Assembly (NCBI GenBank): GCA_963770385.1
Contig: CAVYPJ010000001.1
Coordinates: 1,168,750-1,232,749, forward strand
Direction of reading: 5' to 3'
Origin: an uncultured Alphaproteobacteria bacterium
GTDB taxonomy: Bacteria > Pseudomonadota > Alphaproteobacteria > Rhizobiales > Xanthobacteraceae
Length of the DNA: 64,000 nucleotides
Below, piece after piece: positions 58,017-63,631 of this stretch. The position numbers and the translations under genes are program-made. The notes below the pieces were generated by a model. The model did no database searches. It was not told the origin of the DNA and saw only the letters and a program-made list of their open reading frames with translations. Every line of letters begins with the position of its first letter. The first letter of the stretch is position 1.

Positions 58017-59507
58017 TCAGCTGGGAATGCCGGGAGTGGTGCCGCGTCCAAGCGCGAACTGACCGACCGGACCTTCGACGTGAAACTCAAGCCCTGTCAT
58101 CCTGGCGAACAGGTCAATATTGCTCGTCCCGACGGCGCATCCGCCGAGGTCCATGTCCGTGGCAGTCAGATACAGCGTCTGCAGTAGCACGCCGACGTCG
58201 CGAAGGATCAGCGAGTAGGCGATCGCGCTGTATTTCCAGGCGATCCGGTCGAAACGAGCTGCAATCGTGATCAGAATCTGAGGCGGCCCGGGAGCGTCCA
58301 TGGCGAATGCAGCGGCGCCGATCAAGGCCTCCAGCTCCTGCGCGCGTACCTCGATCGGCACGAGTGCATGGCGGTCGGCGTCGTAATGATAGAAGCCCGG
58401 CGTGAGGCCATCGCATCGGGCGACCGCGAGATAAAGCTCGAGCTCATAGGCGCTACCGGCCGAGGGATAGGGCCGAGTCGTGTAGTCGATCTCGGGACCG
58501 AACGTGCCATCGCCGAAGTCGAGCGGGTTGATCCATTTCGATCGTACGCGCGCTGCGCAATCGAGGAATTGCGCAAGCTCGGCTAGCGTGATCGGATTCT
58601 GGTCGTCGAATTCCCGGATCGAGTGGCGCTCGCCCAGCAGCTCCGCAAAAGGTGACATCAGCTCGTTCGTCGCGTCCGTGAACGGCTGCAGATCGATCGT
58701 CGTGCCCGGCCACGCCGGCCGGACAGCCGAGGGCGGCGGGATCAGGTCGACATAGGGGTAACGCCCGCCAATCGGATTGGCCTGCCGCCCCTCGGTACTT
58801 TGGACGTGAAACAGCAGATCATGGAAATCCCATACCACGAGTGGGGCGCCGCCTTCGCTTGGACGCAGACCCTCATCGCCAACGGTTTCGATCTTGAACA
58901 GGATCTGGCAATCCAGCAGCAGCGCAAGCAGTTCCTCGCCCGGACCACCCTGCTGCCGCAGCTTGCCAACCCTGTGCGGAGACGACAGCGTGACGAGCGC
59001 AGATGCGATCTTCGGATCCGCGATGCGAAACAGCGCCGCGGCGCGCGGCGATTCCAGCACCATCTCGTTGCCGCGCCGGCGCATATAGGCGAAGCGCGAC
59101 AAAACGACCGTATCGGTCGCGCGGAGCTTTTGTATCTTCGGCCAATAGTCGGCGGACTGCGGTTCGACGACGACGAGGTCCTGATCGCCGCGTGCACGGG
59201 AGAGGCGATATTCGACGAGGCCTCGTCGCGCGAGTTGCCGCACCACGAGATCAATCTCGCGGTCGACCGAGCTTCCATCCACGGAGAACGAATGGAGCGG
59301 GAGGCCGCTTCGAAGATCACGCGCCCGCTTGATCGCGCCCGTGCTGAATTTACCCAGTTCGACCGCGTAGCCGTCGAAGTCGGCCGCAAGACTGCCGTCC
59401 GGCCGCGCTTGAATAGTGAAGTGCTCGTTCAACCTGACGGAGAGAACGGGCGGGGTCGTCTTTCGCCGTTTCTTGGGCGAAGGTTTCTTGGATTGAAGCG
59501 CGGGCAC
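58017..59507 (-). CDS. SagB/ThcOx-type FMN-dependent azoline oxidase with N-terminal extension
   Basis: RHSIREF, RPYPSAGSAYELELY, WKYSAIAYSL..DVGVLLQTLYL; directly downstream of the YcaO gene. Confidence 0.92.
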   Translation of the reverse strand: MPALQSKKPSPKKRRKTTPPVLSVRLNEHFTIQARPDGSLAADFDGYAVELGKFSTGAIKRARDLRSGLPLHSFSVDGSSVDREIDLVVRQLARRGLVEYRLSRARGDQDLVVVEPQSADYWPKIQKLRATDTVVLSRFAYMRRRGNEMVLESPRAAALFRIADPKIASALVTLSSPHRVGKLRQQGGPGEELLALLLDCQILFKIETVGDEGLRPSEGGAPLVVWDFHDLLFHVQSTEGRQANPIGGRYPYVDLIPPPSAVRPAWPGTTIDLQPFTDATNELMSPFAELLGERHSIREFDDQNPITLAELAQFLDCAARVRSKWINPLDFGDGTFGPEIDYTTRPYPSAGSAYELELYLAVARCDGLTPGFYHYDADRHALVPIEVRAQELEALIGAAAFAMDAPGPPQILITIAARFDRIAWKYSAIAYSLILRDVGVLLQTLYLTATDMDLGGCAVGTSNIDLFARMTGLEFHVEGPVGQFALGRGTTPGIPS

Positions 59508-59522: not shown

Positions 59523-61856
59523 TCAGGTGTGGGGCAGGAACGGCGTCAGCTCTTCCTCCGGCAACGAGCGCTCCAGAAGGCCGAGCTTGACCGGCACGTC
59601 GTAGAGGCGGCCCGGCCCGAAGCGCTTGTAGAAATGCCGCATGCCCGGAACGAGCACCCTGACCACGGGCACCTCGACATCGGGCCGCGTCTGGTCGAGG
59701 ACCAGAAAATCCATGCCGGCGCGACTTGCGATGTCGACACAGGCCTGCACCTGGTCGCGGGTGTTGTCGTGGACCGAGAGACCCACTGCCGGCGGCAGCA
59801 CCGGGTTCGCGGCGGGCAGCAGGAACGGATAGTTATCGAGGTTCAACGGCGTCACGCCATCGAGCGTGGGCTTCTCGCCACTTGCGCCACCCATCATGCC
59901 GATCGCCAGGAATTGGCTGAGCTCCGTCAGCGCGCGCAACAATGCGATCCGCCGGTCGAAATGCGAACCGGAGCCGAACTCGATGTTCTCCTGGCCGTCC
60001 TGCATCCAGTGCATGATTGCCACATAAGTGGGAATGCCGATATCGCTGGTGATGTCGAGTACCCAGATCTTCCGGCCAGCCTCGGCGAATTGCGACTTGA
60101 TATCGCGCACATAGGAATCGTCGAACTGGTCGAGATCGAGCTCGGCGCGCTGCGAGCGATTGTACCACCAGATCGCATAAGCATCGCGTTCGACAAGCTC
60201 AAGGAAGCCTTGAACGATCGCTTCTTCGCGCGTGTTGCCTGCCGCGCAGCCGTTGGAGTCGGTGTGGAAGCCGCGATAGAAGAAGTAGAGCAGCCCGGTC
60301 GGGAAATATTGGAAACGCTTGTCGCGCAGCGACCATGCCGGCGACCACTCGGTCTTCTCGGAAGGGTCGAACGGATGTGGCACCTGGTGCGCGCCATCGG
60401 GCTGTGGAATGTGCCTGGTGTCGTATTGCGACTGGCTGAAGAGCTGGACGTCGTTGGGCAGCATCGCTTCGCCGAGCTCGAAATCCGTGAAGCGTTTTGT
60501 GATCCGGATCTCGTCGCCCTGGAAGATTCCGGAGTAGCGCTCGATTGCCTCCATCAGCGCGCTGGCCTCGGCCTGCTCGGGGGTCGAGCCCTTGCCATAG
60601 CTGCCGCCGCTCAGGCCTGAGCGGAGCTGATCGACGCTGTGCGCCGGCGCGGAGAAATTATGCTGGGCGTAGAAGTTCGTGTTCATCGGCAGATCGGCCT
60701 CAATCCGCTCGAGTTGAGTGACCACACCGGTGAGGGGGCTGACATGCTTGCGGAAGCGCGACACGGTCGTACGTGACGACACCGTGCGATAGCCGCCGCT
60801 GGTCATGATCAGCTTGTTGCCTTCGGCAAGCTCGACCGGCCGTGGCCTGCGGCGCGGATTGTAGAGCTTCTTGCTGCCGCAGGTCGGGCATTGCGGGCGC
60901 CTCGCGACATAATGCTTGGCGATGTTCGCGCCCATCATGTCGAAGCTCGCGATATGATTATTTAGGTCGGTGCGAAAACCCGATGCAATTGCCTTTGCGA
61001 TCTCGACGGCGGCGAACTGGATGCCGCCCTGGCCGAGCATGTTGCGGACGAGCGGGGAGGTGGCGACCCGCTGCGCCGGCCCGCGCTCGAGGAAGCCTTT
61101 GATCTCGCGATTGCGGATCATGCGATCAAACAGGCAGGTCCAGCAAGCGGTCTCGCCCGGCTTGAGCACCGGTCCAACCAGAGGAAAGACGCCCGACGGT
61201 TGCACCAAGAGCCAAGGCGTCTTGTCTGCCACGCGCTGCTGGTTCAATTCGGCCAGACGCCGCTCCAGATAATCATTTGCCAGTGTGATAGTGAGATCCG
61301 GCGAGCGCGGCACGATGCGAACGCCGAGTTCGGCCAGGGCAGCCGTGAGCTCCTTGGCGCCAGCCACGTCGATCGCTTCAACGCGCACCTTGCACTCGCT
61401 GAGATTCTTCTCGGCGATCTCAGGCGGCAATCCGAGGCTTGCCCAGTAGCCTGCAACCGTCCCGTCGGCGCCATAGGAAGCTTGTGTGACGTAGCGCCGT
61501 TCGAGCAACCGTTTCAGCGCCTCCTCGATCTTGTCAGCGGGGAATTGCGGCTGCAGGTCGCGAAGAAGATCCTTTGCACTCTTGCCGCCTTTGGCGATCG
61601 CCGATACCAGCGTGCAATAGAGTTCGCCGTGCAGGAAGAATTTCCGGTCCTCCGAATAGAGGCACACGACATCGGGCGGCAGAACATAAGCGGTAAAATT
61701 CGGCGTGAATTGCAGGGCGTCCTTGCTGGCCGCCCGCTTGGCGACGGTCTTCTTGGAGGTGGTCCGCTTCGAGGCAGTCTCCTTCGAGGCAGCCTTCTTC
61801 GAGGCAGTCTTGCGTTGAGCCGTCTTGCGATGAACCTTCATCGTCTTCGCACGCAC
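59523..61856 (-). CDS. Fused azole cyclodehydratase (RRE / E1-like C domain / YcaO D domain)
   Basis: GETACWTCL and RRPQCPTCG; SALMEAIERYSG; SNGCAAGNTREEAIVQGFLELVERDA; Pro-rich C-terminus LTPFLPHT. Confidence 0.94.
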   Translation of the reverse strand: MRAKTMKVHRKTAQRKTASKKAASKETASKRTTSKKTVAKRAASKDALQFTPNFTAYVLPPDVVCLYSEDRKFFLHGELYCTLVSAIAKGGKSAKDLLRDLQPQFPADKIEEALKRLLERRYVTQASYGADGTVAGYWASLGLPPEIAEKNLSECKVRVEAIDVAGAKELTAALAELGVRIVPRSPDLTITLANDYLERRLAELNQQRVADKTPWLLVQPSGVFPLVGPVLKPGETACWTCLFDRMIRNREIKGFLERGPAQRVATSPLVRNMLGQGGIQFAAVEIAKAIASGFRTDLNNHIASFDMMGANIAKHYVARRPQCPTCGSKKLYNPRRRPRPVELAEGNKLIMTSGGYRTVSSRTTVSRFRKHVSPLTGVVTQLERIEADLPMNTNFYAQHNFSAPAHSVDQLRSGLSGGSYGKGSTPEQAEASALMEAIERYSGIFQGDEIRITKRFTDFELGEAMLPNDVQLFSQSQYDTRHIPQPDGAHQVPHPFDPSEKTEWSPAWSLRDKRFQYFPTGLLYFFYRGFHTDSNGCAAGNTREEAIVQGFLELVERDAYAIWWYNRSQRAELDLDQFDDSYVRDIKSQFAEAGRKIWVLDITSDIGIPTYVAIMHWMQDGQENIEFGSGSHFDRRIALLRALTELSQFLAIGMMGGASGEKPTLDGVTPLNLDNYPFLLPAANPVLPPAVGLSVHDNTRDQVQACVDIASRAGMDFLVLDQTRPDVEVPVVRVLVPGMRHFYKRFGPGRLYDVPVKLGLLERSLPEEELTPFLPHT

Positions 61857-62004: not shown

Positions 62005-62036
62005 ATGGCCGGGTCGACTTGGTCGAACCCGGCCAT
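62005..62036 (-). terminator. Strong hairpin between the precursor and enzyme genes
   Basis: ATGGCCGGG-TTCGACCAAGTCGA-CCCGGCCAT followed by TTC; only a short U tract. Confidence 0.6.
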
Positions 62037-62077: not shown

Positions 62078-62473
62078 TCAGCAGACGCGGCAGGGTCCGC
62101 CCCACGAGATGCAGCAACCACCGCAACCACCGCAACCGACGCCACAACGGCAGGCGCGGCATCCGCGGCATCCACCGCAGCCCCGGCAGCCGCGGCAACC
62201 GCCACAGCCACGCCATGCAACCTGCACACCGTTGCCAGCATTTTCCTTGTCGAACAAATGGAATGTCGCCAAGCTCACATCGGCGATTTCTTCTTCACCG
62301 AGCGTCACCGCCTGAGACGGCGAAAAGTTCAATTTCTGCGGAGTGTCCACGGCCGGTACGGCCGAAGCTGAAGCGCCGCCCGCCAGCGAAAAAGTCAGAC
62401 CTGCGGCACCTAAGGCCGGCATTGTGGCTTTCGCCACGCTCTTCCGCTTCGAAGCCTGCTTCACCCGTGACAT
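62078..62473 (-). CDS. RiPP precursor peptide, 131 aa, with a Cys/Gly/Arg-rich core
   Basis: AAGGAGGAG RBS; signal-like N-terminus; acidic LGEEEIADVSL leader; core with 14 Cys; first gene of the YcaO/SagB operon. Confidence 0.88.
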   Translation of the reverse strand: MSRVKQASKRKSVAKATMPALGAAGLTFSLAGGASASAVPAVDTPQKLNFSPSQAVTLGEEEIADVSLATFHLFDKENAGNGVQVAWRGCGGCRGCRGCGGCRGCRACRCGVGCGGCGGCCISWGGPCRVC

Positions 62474-62520
62474 TGTAGCTCCTCCTTACCTGTGGGAACG
62501 TTTCGATTCCAGCCGCTGCA

Positions 62521-62549: not shown

Positions 62550-62722
62550 GCAACTAACGCGTTGTTTCGTATTCAGTTTCTATTCATCTTGATGAATGAC
62601 ATTGATGTCATTTATGCGATGCTTCCGCAGGCGGATTTGCGTGTTGCGACTTCATCGCGCAAACAACTCGGCAGGTGCAATGCATCTGCGGCAGTGCAGT
62701 GCAAACGGATAGCGTAGTCGGC

Positions 62723-63631
62723 ATGGTCGATCGTCAGGGCTGCTTTGTCTGGTATGAGCTGTTGACCACTGACGTGGCGGCGGCGAAGGCGTTCTATCGC
62801 GACGTCATCGGTTGGGAGTCGCAAGATGCGACGACACCAGCGTTTACTTACAGTCTTTTTATGTCGTCGAGCGGTGCGGTCGCCGGATTGATGGATCTGC
62901 CCGAGGAAGGTCGGCGAATGGGAGCGACGCCGAGGTGGGTCGGCTATGTCGCTGTCGACGACATCGACGCGACCGCCGATCAGGTCAGAAAGCTTGGCGG
63001 TAGGATCTACGTTCCGCCGACGGACAGCAATATCGGTCGGCTTTCGATCGTTGCCGACGCGCAAGCCGCGGACTTCGCGCTCGTTGATGGATTGAAGCCG
63101 GAGCGCCGGGCCACCGCTCCGGATGCGCCGGGGCATGTTGGCTGGCACGAATTGCTGGCAGCGGATGGCGCAAGCGCGTTCGCGTTTTACGCCGAACTGT
63201 TCGGCTGGAAAAAAGCTGAAGCGGTGGGACCGAAGAGTGCAGTCGAGTCCTACCAACTGTTCGCCGCTGACGGTGTCACGATGGGAGGCATCTTCACCAA
63301 GTTCGCCCGCGAGCGGGTTCCGTTCTGGCTATACTACTTCAATGTCGCCGATGTCGCGCAAGCGGTTGCGCGGGTGAGGGCGGGCGGCGGCAAGGTCGTG
63401 CAAGGGCCGACGGAATTGCCGGACGGAAGTTGGATCGTCCGCTGTATCGATCCTCAGGATACGATGTTCGCGCTACAGGGCAAATCGAGCCAGCGTGGCG
63501 CCGAGCAGCCCGCGGCCGAGATCGGCTGGTCCACAAAGTGGGGGGACTTCGCCTCACGCGGCAGAATGATTGTCCGGCCGGAGGCCAAGCCGAACACAAG
63601 CCCGAACACAAAGCCGAAGCCGCAGCGCTGA
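62723..63631 (+). CDS. Two-domain VOC (glyoxalase/bleomycin-resistance-like) protein
   Basis: FVWYEL..AKAFYRDVIGW and VGWHEL..AFAFYAELFGW repeats; divergent from the precursor. Confidence 0.88.
   Translation: MVDRQGCFVWYELLTTDVAAAKAFYRDVIGWESQDATTPAFTYSLFMSSSGAVAGLMDLPEEGRRMGATPRWVGYVAVDDIDATADQVRKLGGRIYVPPTDSNIGRLSIVADAQAADFALVDGLKPERRATAPDAPGHVGWHELLAADGASAFAFYAELFGWKKAEAVGPKSAVESYQLFAADGVTMGGIFTKFARERVPFWLYYFNVADVAQAVARVRAGGGKVVQGPTELPDGSWIVRCIDPQDTMFALQGKSSQRGAEQPAAEIGWSTKWGDFASRGRMIVRPEAKPNTSPNTKPKPQR

What the first reader, a model, noticed from the sequence alone, without database searches (positions are those of the whole stretch)
62213..62473. Signal-peptide-like N-terminus on the precursor, with no protease or exporter in the cluster
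Seen in sequence: a basic n-region (KQASKRKSVAK), a hydrophobic h-region (MPALGAAGLTFSLAGG) and an ASA cleavage-like site, followed by an acidic LGEEEIADVSLATF segment. That segment loosely recalls the cyanobactin heterocyclase recognition helix LAELSEEAL. The flanking genes (yciF/Crp and VOC/opgC) encode no peptidase or ABC exporter. Inference: the modified peptide may use general secretion and housekeeping proteases, which would be unusual for azole RiPPs. The enzymes may also serve precursor paralogues elsewhere in the genome.
Basis: partly seen in the sequence, partly recalled or inferred. Interest (0 to 1): 0.7.

Follow-up and report, generated by a model that had tools for sequence, protein, structure and literature searches.

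The report
Signal-peptide-like leader on polythiazole precursor
A small cysteine-rich peptide gene sits in front of thiazole-forming enzymes in a Bradyrhizobium-type genome, and its product starts like a secreted protein; if that start works as an export signal, this would be the first azole-type modified peptide sent out by the cell's general secretion route.

Summary
Residues 1-87 of the 131-aa precursor (62078-62473, minus strand) carry four parts:
- a basic n-region with +6 net charge;
- a 27-residue uncharged Gly/Ala/Leu stretch;
- an ASASA site;
- after a variable linker, the acidic LGEEEIADVSLATFHLFDKEN block.

This layout is conserved across a large, unnamed family. The family has 913 clusters at 50% identity and 554 genomic loci, all within one alphaproteobacterial family.

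No protease or exporter is syntenic in about 70 related loci. The genome has two orphan precursor paralogues but only one enzyme set.

- The enzymes are full-length homologues of the cyanobactin heterocyclase LynD/TruD and the oxidase CyaGox/ThcOx. This strengthens the reading of the acidic block as a recognition sequence.
- The VOC gene is not a mere flank. It is a fourth conserved cluster member.
- Use of housekeeping proteases is not unusual for azole peptides; TldD/E does this for microcin B17.

The signal is atypical. Its h-region is weakly hydrophobic and almost as conserved as the recognition block, so a second role is likely. Sec export is the best reading at about 0.55, but it is not shown. 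No SignalP-type predictor was available.

The parts
62078..62473 (-). Precursor gene, 131 aa: signal-like N-terminus, linker, acidic recognition block, Cys/Gly/Arg core
   Evidence: ORF list and sequence. 3192 homologues at E<=0.01. 913 clusters at 50% identity. No Pfam or NCBIfam family.
62474..62490 (-). Ribosome-binding site: AAGGAGGAG, ending 7 nt before the ATG
   Evidence: Read directly. Met1 is conserved in 119 of the 127 representatives.
62429..62473 (-). n-region, residues 1-15 (MSRVKQASKRKSVAK): 6 K/R, no acidic residue
   Evidence: Family median net charge +6. A twin arginine is present in only 44 of 127 representatives and not in this copy.
62375..62428 (-). h-region, residues 16-33 (ATMPALGAAGLTFSLAGG): uncharged, Gly/Ala-rich, weakly hydrophobic
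   Evidence: Maximum KD over 10 residues is 1.55, against a median of 2.45 for 32 TctC periplasmic proteins of the same genome. Mean information 3.18 bits per column; the two Gly are 99-100% conserved.
62360..62374 (-). c-region, residues 34-38 (ASASA): two -3/-1 sites. Predicted signal peptidase I cleavage after A36 or A38.
   Evidence: Read from the sequence. A-S-A is 88/84/94% conserved across the family.
62303..62359 (-). Variable Pro/Thr/Asp-rich linker, residues 39-57
   Evidence: Least conserved leader segment, 2.06 bits per column.
62240..62302 (-). Acidic recognition block, residues 58-78 (LGEEEIADVSLATFHLFDKEN). Inferred binding site for the RRE domain of the LynD-type heterocyclase.
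   Evidence: Most conserved leader segment, 3.45 bits per column. L58, E60, E62, D65, L68, T70, F71 and F74 are invariant in A1/A2. The enzyme is a LynD/TruD homologue. Binding is inferred, not tested.
62081..62206 (-). Core, residues 90-131: Cys every second or third residue among Gly and Arg. The tail CCISWGGPCRVC is conserved as CC[AL][ST]WGxCRxC.
62005..62036 (-). Strong hairpin (GGCCGGGUUCGACC-AAG-UCGACCCGGCC) in the 221-nt gap between the precursor and heterocyclase genes. Possibly a partial terminator or a stabiliser of the precursor transcript.
   Evidence: Fold. The whole-region z-score is not significant (-0.51). The terminator scan did not list it.
59523..61856 (-). Fused wHTH(RRE)/E1-like/YcaO heterocyclase, 777 aa, with a Lys-rich N-terminal extension
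   Evidence: TIGR03882, TIGR03604, PF02624 and PF21084. LynD 4v1t E 3.1e-147 over residues 46-772; TruD; MusD.
58017..59507 (-). SagB-type FMN azoline oxidase with a ThcOx-type N-terminal domain, 496 aa
   Evidence: TIGR03605, PF22767 and PF00881. CyaGox 5lq4 E 9e-54.
62675..63631 (+). Two-module VOC (glyoxalase/bleomycin-resistance fold) protein, divergent from the precursor. Fourth conserved cluster member; likely true start at M17 (62723).
   Evidence: Pfam. Adjacent in about 72 of 80 loci. Relocated but still linked in L092 and L095. Present in 3 of 3 precursor-positive and 0 of 9 precursor-negative genomes. Nearest solved structure is Rv0577.
62592..62615 (.). Near-perfect palindrome ATGAATGACAT-TG-ATGTCATTTAT in the divergent promoter region. 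Candidate operator.
   Evidence: Conserved only in the closest relatives, L009 and L023.

Best explanation
The precursor leader is built from two modules.

Residues 1-38 form a Sec-type, signal-peptidase-I-type export signal of an atypical kind. The n-region is very basic. The h-region is weakly hydrophobic and Gly/Ala-rich. The c-region is a textbook GG-ASASA.

Residues 58-78 form the recognition sequence for the RRE domain of a cytoplasmic, ATP-dependent LynD-type heterocyclase.

Proposed order of events (inferred):
1. The precursor is made in the cytoplasm.
2. It is held by the heterocyclase through the acidic block.
3. Its core cysteines are converted to thiazolines.
4. The ThcOx-type FMN oxidase converts the thiazolines to thiazoles.
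5. The precursor is targeted post-translationally to SecA/SecYEG. A weakly hydrophobic signal favours this slow route.
6. It is cleaved after A36 or A38.

This releases a periplasmic product of about 93-95 residues that still carries the linker and recognition block, unless periplasmic proteases trim it.

The unusually high conservation of the h-region suggests that the signal is also read by a partner. That partner could be the enzyme complex or a chaperone that masks the signal until modification is complete.

One enzyme set serves the adjacent precursor and the two orphan paralogues in trans. The linked VOC protein is part of the system; its role (sequestration/immunity or chemistry) is open.
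For: Shown:
- The n/h/c layout is in the sequence and is far from chance (1.2e-4 per random window).
- It is kept in all divergent members, while the linker drifts.
- The h-region is essentially never charged (11 of 2286 cells). The early mature region is neutral or acidic.
- Gly-Gly at -5/-4 and A-x-A are conserved.
- A crude class-based scoring matrix was trained on 30 periplasmic TctC signal peptides of the same genome. All nine family members tested score at or above about the 95th percentile of random windows: 4.1 for this copy, 7.1 and 8.7 for the two paralogues, and up to 10.2 for others. Cytoplasmic controls from the window score -9.3 to -4.6.
- No exporter or protease is recurrently linked in about 70 loci.
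- The enzymes carry no signal and are LynD- and CyaGox-type.
- 44 of 44 precursor-bearing genomes have the enzyme, mostly one copy for 1-5 precursors.

Precedent: Sec signal peptides on bufferin and oxazolin precursors, where masking of the signal by the partner protein has been proposed (PMC12452194).
Against: - No dedicated predictor (SignalP, TatP, DeepTMHMM) could be run, and nothing here tests export.
- The h-region hydrophobicity (KD10 1.55) lies near the bottom of the same-genome periplasmic controls (median 2.45).
- This copy scores only 4.1 on my yardstick, against a median of 8.55 for true signals.
- The h-region is almost as conserved as the recognition block (3.18 against 3.45 bits). 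That is not expected of a plain signal peptide and fits a binding element.
- AlphaFold2 gives no N-terminal helix. The whole peptide is predicted disordered, mean pLDDT 45.7.
- Sec export reaches only the periplasm, which does not explain how an antibiotic would leave the cell.
- An Arg-rich, rigid polythiazole core is an untested Sec substrate.
Confidence: 0.55

Rival explanations
1. The N-terminal module is not an export signal. It is a second recognition or membrane-association element, read for example by the RRE-like domains of the oxidase, the Lys-rich tail region of the heterocyclase, or a chaperone. The modified peptide stays in the cytoplasm, or the unlinked TldD/E pair trims it from its N-terminus up to the first thiazole. 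An unlinked transporter then releases it.
For: - The h-region is almost as conserved as the recognition block, with two invariant Gly.
- Its hydrophobicity is weak.
- Both enzymes carry RRE-type domains (PF21084, PF22767).
- TldD/E genes are present and unlinked. They trim the leaders of microcin B17 and klebsazolicin without being in the cluster (PMC10885120).
- A linked VOC (bleomycin-resistance-fold) protein would fit cytoplasmic sequestration of a toxic product.
Against: - RRE-bound leader segments are short. Nothing about binding requires a +6 n-region, a strictly uncharged 17-27-residue stretch, a Gly-Gly break and A-x-A all together.
- That combination is conserved even where the sequence diverges.
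- Three divergent copies replace AxA by a lipobox-like G/A-A/G-C. That change is more naturally read as a switch between export-signal types.
- In the LynD/PatE system, only the segment next to the core is needed for recognition (established knowledge, not tested here).
Confidence: 0.28
2. The signal is a Tat signal. The peptide, rigid after modification, is exported by the twin-arginine pathway.
For: The n-region is long and basic and the h-region is weakly hydrophobic and Gly-rich, as in Tat signals. About a third of representatives have RR in the n-region (44 of 127). One member has a basic residue in the c-region (L136).
Against: - This copy has KRK, not RR. RR is absent from 65% of representatives.
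- Where RR is present, the context is RR-x-K-A/T-V/L, not RR-x-F-L-K.
- No match to the Pfam TAT_signal model at E<=10 for eight N-termini, and none in NCBIfam.
Confidence: 0.07
3. The resemblance is a compositional accident of a GC-rich genome (Ala/Gly/Ser-rich translation) and has no function.
For: The genome is GC-rich and the segment is Ala/Gly/Ser-rich. AlphaFold2 sees no structure.
Against: The chance rate is 1.2e-4 per window in the same genome. The segment is more conserved than the adjacent linker across 127 representatives. The start codon and RBS are conserved.
Confidence: 0.02

Closest known systems
Cyanobactin heterocyclase/oxidase pair (LynD, TruD, PatD, MusD; ThcOx/CyaGox) with PatE-type leaders
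   Same: The heterocyclase aligns over its full length with LynD and TruD (E 3e-147 and 4e-143) and has the same wHTH-RRE/E1-like/YcaO fusion. The oxidase matches CyaGox (E 9e-54) and has the ThcOx N-terminal domain. An acidic L-x-E-E-x-[IL] block just upstream of the core loosely resembles LAELSEEAL.
   Different: There are no PatA/PatG subtilisin proteases. The precursor has no RSII/RSIII or AYDG-type macrocyclisation signals. The core is one long Cys/Gly/Arg repeat rather than short cassettes. The N-terminus is signal-like. The host is an alphaproteobacterium. A VOC protein is linked.
Bufferins and oxazolins (MNIO-modified RiPPs with Sec signal peptides)
   Same: The precursor is Cys-rich and carries an N-terminal Sec-type signal instead of a classical leader only. 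The cluster has no exporter or protease. A periplasmic destination is expected. The same problem arises of keeping the signal from acting before modification (PMC12452194).
   Different: The chemistry and enzymes are entirely different: YcaO/E1 plus an FMN oxidase here, MNIO plus a DUF2063 partner there. This precursor also has an internal recognition block between signal and core. Export is not shown here.
Heterocycloanthracin-type TOMMs (Haft 2009) and the Bradyrhizobium japonicum 'Cys-Arg-Gly repeat' precursor listed by Lee et al. 2008
   Same: Cys-Xaa-Xaa periodic, Gly-rich cores. The enzyme set is minimal. Some precursors are encoded far from the single maturation operon (PMC2674419). The B. 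japonicum precursor mentioned there is very probably a member of this family; that is my inference, because the 2008 paper could not be read.
   Different: The leader does not match TIGR03601 or any other model. The enzymes are closer to cyanobactin enzymes. The papers I could read do not mention a signal-like N-terminus.
Microcin B17, klebsazolicin and phazolicin (Gram-negative linear azole peptides)
   Same: Gly/Cys-rich core, a YcaO plus an FMN dehydrogenase, and leader removal by a protease not encoded in the cluster (TldD/E; PMC10885120).
   Different: Those clusters encode a dedicated ABC exporter and/or immunity gene, and their short leaders have no signal-like architecture. Here there is no exporter, and the leader before the first Cys is 89 residues long.

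Membership tests
Sec-type (signal peptidase I) signal peptide | Positively charged n-region at the extreme N-terminus | tested here: met
   6 K/R and no D/E in residues 1-15. Family median charge +6. This is more basic than the same-genome TctC controls (median 2).
Sec-type (signal peptide I) signal peptide | Uncharged hydrophobic h-region of about 10-20 residues | tested here: inconclusive
   The stretch is strictly uncharged (11 of 2286 cells). It is only weakly hydrophobic: KD10 is 1.55, against a median of 2.45 (range 0.72-3.28) in 32 periplasmic controls.
Sec-type (signal peptidase I) signal peptide | c-region with small residues at -3/-1, a helix breaker at -4 to -6, and no Pro at +1 | tested here: met
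   GG-A-S-A-S-A|V-P. The A-S-A positions are 88/84/94% conserved and the Gly positions 80/66%.
Sec-type (signal peptidase I) signal peptide | Called by a trained predictor (SignalP 6, DeepTMHMM) | not testable with these tools
   No such tool was available. My own class matrix, trained on 30 TctC signals, gives 4.1 for this copy (about the 95th percentile of random windows) and 4.3-10.2 for eight relatives. True signals have a median of 8.55.
Sec-type (signal peptidase I) signal peptide | Export and cleavage demonstrated | not testable with these tools
   Needs reporter fusions or proteomics. The read-laying route was closed and would not have shown export anyway.
Tat signal peptide | Twin-arginine motif (S/T)-R-R-x-F-L-K next to the h-region | tested here: not met
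   This copy has S-K-R-K-S-V-A-K. RR is present in 44 of 127 representatives, in a non-consensus context. No PF10518 or TIGR01409 match.
Lipoprotein (signal peptidase II) signal | Lipobox [LVI][ASTVI][GAS]C at the end of the h-region | tested here: not met
   This copy has no Cys before residue 90, and none of 127 representatives has one in the c-region. Lipobox-like G/A-A/G-C occurs only in three divergent copies: paralogue 3, G484 and G674.
Linear azole peptide / TOMM precursor | Small gene next to a YcaO cyclodehydratase with an E1-like/RRE partner and an FMN (SagB) dehydrogenase; Cys/Ser/Thr-rich C-terminal core | tested here: met
   Same-strand operon with TIGR03882, TIGR03604 and TIGR03605. 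14 Cys in residues 90-131. Synteny holds in about 70 loci.
Cyanobactin | PatD/LynD-type heterocyclase (and optional ThcOx-type oxidase) | tested here: met
Cyanobactin | PatA and PatG subtilisin-type proteases, with protease/macrocyclase recognition sequences flanking each core | tested here: not met
   No protease in this locus or recurrently in about 70 loci. The precursor ends in CRVC and has no AYDG-type signal.
Bufferin/oxazolin | MNIO (DUF692) enzyme with a DUF2063 partner next to the precursor | tested here: not met
   The neighbouring enzymes are YcaO and SagB types.
Heterocycloanthracin/sonorensin family | Leader matching TIGR03601 | tested here: not met
   No NCBIfam match at E<=0.01.

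The most novel reading that the evidence does not exclude
This family may be a new class of 'RiPP proteins'. The product would be a periplasmic polythiazole polypeptide of about 95 residues. It is made by cyanobactin-type enzymes and exported by Sec through a signal peptide that doubles as a recognition or masking element. It then works in the periplasm rather than as a secreted antibiotic. One possible periplasmic role is metal buffering, by analogy with bufferins and with copper binding by cyanobactin heterocycles. In this reading the linked VOC protein is its cytoplasmic partner.
Probability: 0.25. Interest if true: 0.8.

Novelty: new variant of a known kind. Interest (0 to 1): 0.6.

Why it matters
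Nearly all bacterial RiPPs leave the cell through dedicated transporters after a dedicated or housekeeping protease removes the leader. Sec signal peptides on RiPP precursors are described as highly unusual, and Sec export has been shown experimentally only for the MNIO-modified bufferins (PMC12452194).

A YcaO/azole pathway whose precursor carries a genuine Sec signal would extend that logic to the largest RiPP chemistry. It raises a testable question: how is export delayed until an ATP-dependent cytoplasmic enzyme has finished? It would also explain why these widespread soil Bradyrhizobium clusters have no transporter, and why no product has been reported since they were first listed in 2008.

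The family is large and the cluster has only four genes, so it is a practical system for heterologous work.

Tried and rejected
- **Pfam and NCBIfam on the precursor:** no family. Eight N-termini at E<=10 gave no TAT_signal match or any other relevant match.
- **'GAAGL' as a common Tat-signal motif in this genome:** my regex found almost only the precursors themselves and unrelated internal sites. This recollection was dropped.
- **Leader profile against PDB, to retrieve PatE and compare recognition sequences:** PatE was not returned. The only hits (E 1-8) were N-terminal targeting regions of QcrC and PsaN, which are not significant.
- **AlphaFold2 of the precursor with a 45-sequence alignment:** disordered, mean pLDDT 45.7, no helix. 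Uninformative, so no fold search was made.
- **Terminator and promoter scans:** nothing above the shuffled expectation. The intergenic fold z-score is not significant although one hairpin is strong.
- **Literature:** no paper in the held library links Bradyrhizobium, YcaO/cyanobactin enzymes and a signal peptide. Lee et al. 2008 is not held.
- **The look-up of sequencing runs was closed:** no transcript evidence could be obtained.
- **Lipoprotein reading for this copy:** rejected, because there is no Cys in the signal.
- **A dedicated importer/exporter reading of the Opp/Dpp-type ABC genes next to sagB:** rejected as a family feature. They occur in 6 of about 70 loci, are convergent, and are of importer type.

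Full report
**1. What is at the coordinates**

The minus-strand ORF 62078-62473 encodes a 131-residue peptide. A strong ribosome-binding site, AAGGAGGAG, ends 7 nt before the ATG. The finding's span 62213-62473 is residues 1-87.

- a basic n-region, residues 1-15, with six K/R and no acidic residue;
- an uncharged stretch from A16 to V42 containing LGAAGLTFSLAGG;
- two overlapping A-x-A sites, ASA|SA|VP, preceded by Gly-Gly;
- a Pro/Thr/Asp-rich linker;
- the acidic block L58-N78, LGEEEIADVSLATFHLFDKEN;
- a core, residues 90-131, with Cys every second or third residue among Gly and Arg.

Two genes follow on the same strand. The first is a 777-aa fused wHTH/E1-like/YcaO protein. The second is a 496-aa SagB dehydrogenase with a ThcOx-type N-terminal domain. 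The flanks are Crp/Fnr and DUF892 on one side, and a two-module VOC protein and OpgC on the other.

**2. Is the pattern more than chance, and is it conserved?**

I defined a composite of the same kind: at least 4 K/R with no acidic residue in 17 aa, then at least 20 uncharged residues with KD10 >= 1.5 and an AxA. It occurs in 1.2e-4 of random internal 45-aa windows of long ORFs of the same genome.

The peptide belongs to a large family that has no name in Pfam or NCBIfam.
- The leader alone finds 3192 proteins at E<=0.01.
- It finds 913 clusters at 50% identity.
- It finds 554 loci among one genome per species of GTDB. The best 80 are all Bradyrhizobium or uncultured Alphaproteobacteria.
- The family is taxonomically narrow. 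Only the window's own genome matches in a class-wide sample of 401 genomes. Within the bacterial family, 45 of 301 genomes and 14 of 62 genera match.

Over 127 representatives aligned to a leader profile, mean information per column is as follows:

| Segment | Bits per column |
|---|---|
| n-region | 2.72 |
| h-region | 3.18 |
| c-region | 2.73 |
| linker | 2.06 |
| acidic block | 3.45 |

Other family-wide properties:
- Median n-region charge is +6.
- The h-region holds 11 charged residues in 2286 cells.
- The A-S-A positions are 88/84/94% conserved.
- The first 20 residues after the AxA have a median charge of -1.
- The most divergent copies I could fetch keep the same layout.

**3. Is it a signal peptide?**

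I could not run SignalP, TatP or DeepTMHMM, so this rests on indirect tests.

*For:*
- The n/h/c layout is textbook, with the helix breaker and -3/-1 residues in the right places.
- The early mature region is neutral or acidic.
- Both properties are held across the family.
- As a same-genome yardstick I collected 40 TctC periplasmic receptors. I read their N-termini and trained a six-class position matrix on 30 of them.
  - Leave-one-out scores of true signals have a median of 8.55 (range -1.3 to 14.1).
  - Random 70-aa windows reach 4.0 at the 95th percentile and 7.1 at the 99th.
  - The window's precursor scores 4.1. Its two paralogues score 7.1 and 8.7. Six other members score 4.3-10.2.
  - Five cytoplasmic proteins from the window score -9.3 to -4.6.

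*Against, or atypical:*
- The h-region is weakly hydrophobic. KD10 is 1.55, against a median of 2.45 in the controls, with only 3 of 32 controls lower.
- The n-region is much more basic than usual.
- The h-region is nearly as conserved as the recognition block, with two essentially invariant Gly. A plain signal peptide should drift faster than that.
- AlphaFold2 predicts the whole peptide as disordered.

*Tat is unlikely:*
- This copy has KRK, not RR.
- RR occurs in only 44 of 127 representatives, and in a non-consensus context.
- No Tat-signal model matches.

My reading is a real but atypical Sec-type signal. Low hydrophobicity would favour slow, post-translational SecA targeting. High conservation points to a second role, such as being bound or masked until modification is finished. 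The same idea has been proposed for bufferin precursors (PMC12452194). I put this at about 0.55. The main rival is a non-export recognition or membrane-association module, with cytoplasmic TldD/E trimming. I put that at about 0.28.

**4. The acidic block and the enzymes**

- The 777-aa protein aligns over residues 46-772 with LynD (E 3.1e-147), TruD and MusD.
- The oxidase aligns with CyaGox (E 9e-54).

These are cytoplasmic, ATP- and FMN-dependent enzymes without signals.

The acidic block is the best-conserved part of the leader and sits where the LynD-type RRE binds its leader. The letter resemblance to LAELSEEAL is limited, at L-x-E-E-x-[IL]. I could not retrieve PatE for a proper alignment. 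Binding is therefore inferred, not shown.

**5. No protease or exporter, and what is linked instead**

I compared 80 related loci, each with up to 10-kb flanks.
- The order VOC (divergent) - precursor - heterocyclase - oxidase recurs in about 70 of them.
- The upstream side is a housekeeping backbone: OpgC, an NDUFS4-like gene, both methylcrotonyl-CoA carboxylase subunits, HMG-CoA lyase and a TRAP permease.
- The downstream side is variable.
- No peptidase or exporter recurs. Six loci have convergent Opp/Dpp-type importer genes.
- The refutation condition 'a dedicated protease/transporter is syntenic in related genomes' is therefore not met.

The VOC gene is not a neutral flank.
- In two more distant genera it has moved to the other end of the operon but stays adjacent.
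- A homologue is present in 3 of 3 precursor-positive genomes and 0 of 9 precursor-negative genomes of the same genus or family.
- Its nearest solved relative is Rv0577, a two-module glyoxalase-fold protein.
- Its role is open. It could sequester the product, in the manner of bleomycin-resistance proteins, or carry out a chemical step.

The statement that housekeeping proteases would be unusual for azole RiPPs is wrong. TldD/E, encoded outside the clusters, removes the leaders of microcin B17 and klebsazolicin (PMC10885120). This genome has an unlinked TldD/E pair. The unusual part is the combination of a Sec-like signal with no exporter.

**6. Paralogues**

The genome holds two further copies:
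- C3:1178425-1178820 is 67% identical and has a longer Gly/Cys/Phe core.
- C1:936407-936697 is about 50% identical. It has a short degenerate core and a Pro/Lys tail.

Their neighbourhoods hold no RiPP enzyme, protease or exporter. The genome has only one LynD-type enzyme and one SagB.

All 44 precursor-bearing genomes of the family sample carry the heterocyclase. Most have one copy for one to five precursors, and one genome has a tandem triplet. The inference that the enzymes serve remote paralogues is well supported genomically.

**7. What is known and what is new**

[quoted passage not shown] (2008). The cluster type has therefore been listed for years. I could not read the 2008 paper.

None of the papers I could search mentions the signal-like N-terminus, the cyanobactin-type enzymes in this host, the VOC linkage, or any product.

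That is agreement between similar readers, not independent evidence.

I rate the finding as a new variant of a known kind: a linear-azole/cyanobactin-enzyme RiPP with a signal-peptide leader. Interest is 0.6. The anatomy is solid and the question is testable, but export itself remains unproven.

Noticed in passing
window 62675-63631 (+); L092 15247-16008; L095 4724-5626: The VOC/glyoxalase-fold gene behaves as a fourth member of the azole cluster. It is adjacent in about 72 of 80 loci. It has been relocated but stays linked in two other genera. It is present only in genomes that have the precursor (3 of 3, against 0 of 9).
   Followed up: yes
window 61722-61856 (-), residues 1-45 of the heterocyclase: A Lys/Ala/Ser/Thr-rich, histone-H1-like N-terminal extension precedes the LynD-homologous part. 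Relatives align only from about residue 26-47, but their open frames are also 20-60 aa longer than LynD. It might contact the acidic leader block or the membrane.
   Followed up: partly
window 62005-62036 (-): A strong 14-bp hairpin lies in the 221-nt gap between the precursor and heterocyclase genes, followed by AUUUCAUGU. It may be a partial terminator or transcript stabiliser that gives an excess of precursor mRNA.
   Followed up: partly
window 62592-62615: A near-perfect palindrome, ATGAATGACAT-TG-ATGTCATTTAT, lies in the divergent precursor/VOC promoter region. The core ATGACA-N4-TGTCAT is kept only in the closest relatives, L009 and L023.
   Followed up: partly
G000 C1:936407-936697 (L007 8321-8704, -); L096; L097: Three divergent family members have a lipobox-like G/A-A/G-C at the end of the signal region instead of AxA. 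They are the window genome's third paralogue and the G484 and G674 copies. The third paralogue is followed on the same strand by a DUF4331 gene.
   Followed up: partly
L092 9435-11110 (G612 C1): Three precursor genes lie in tandem in front of one heterocyclase. The first has a short, non-repetitive core.
   Followed up: partly
P0128, P0132, P0144, P0184, P0236 and other metagenome proteins: Many predicted family members switch in the GC-rich core into Leu/Arg-rich or Ala-rich alternative frames. This points to frameshifted assemblies or gene calls in the CGG-type repeat, so database lengths and core sequences of this family are unreliable.
   Followed up: no
L031 14205-16346 and five other loci; L019 17627-18514: In six loci a fused double-ATPase ABC protein and an OppC-type permease (peptide-importer type) lie convergent to sagB. 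This is not a family-wide feature.
   Followed up: no
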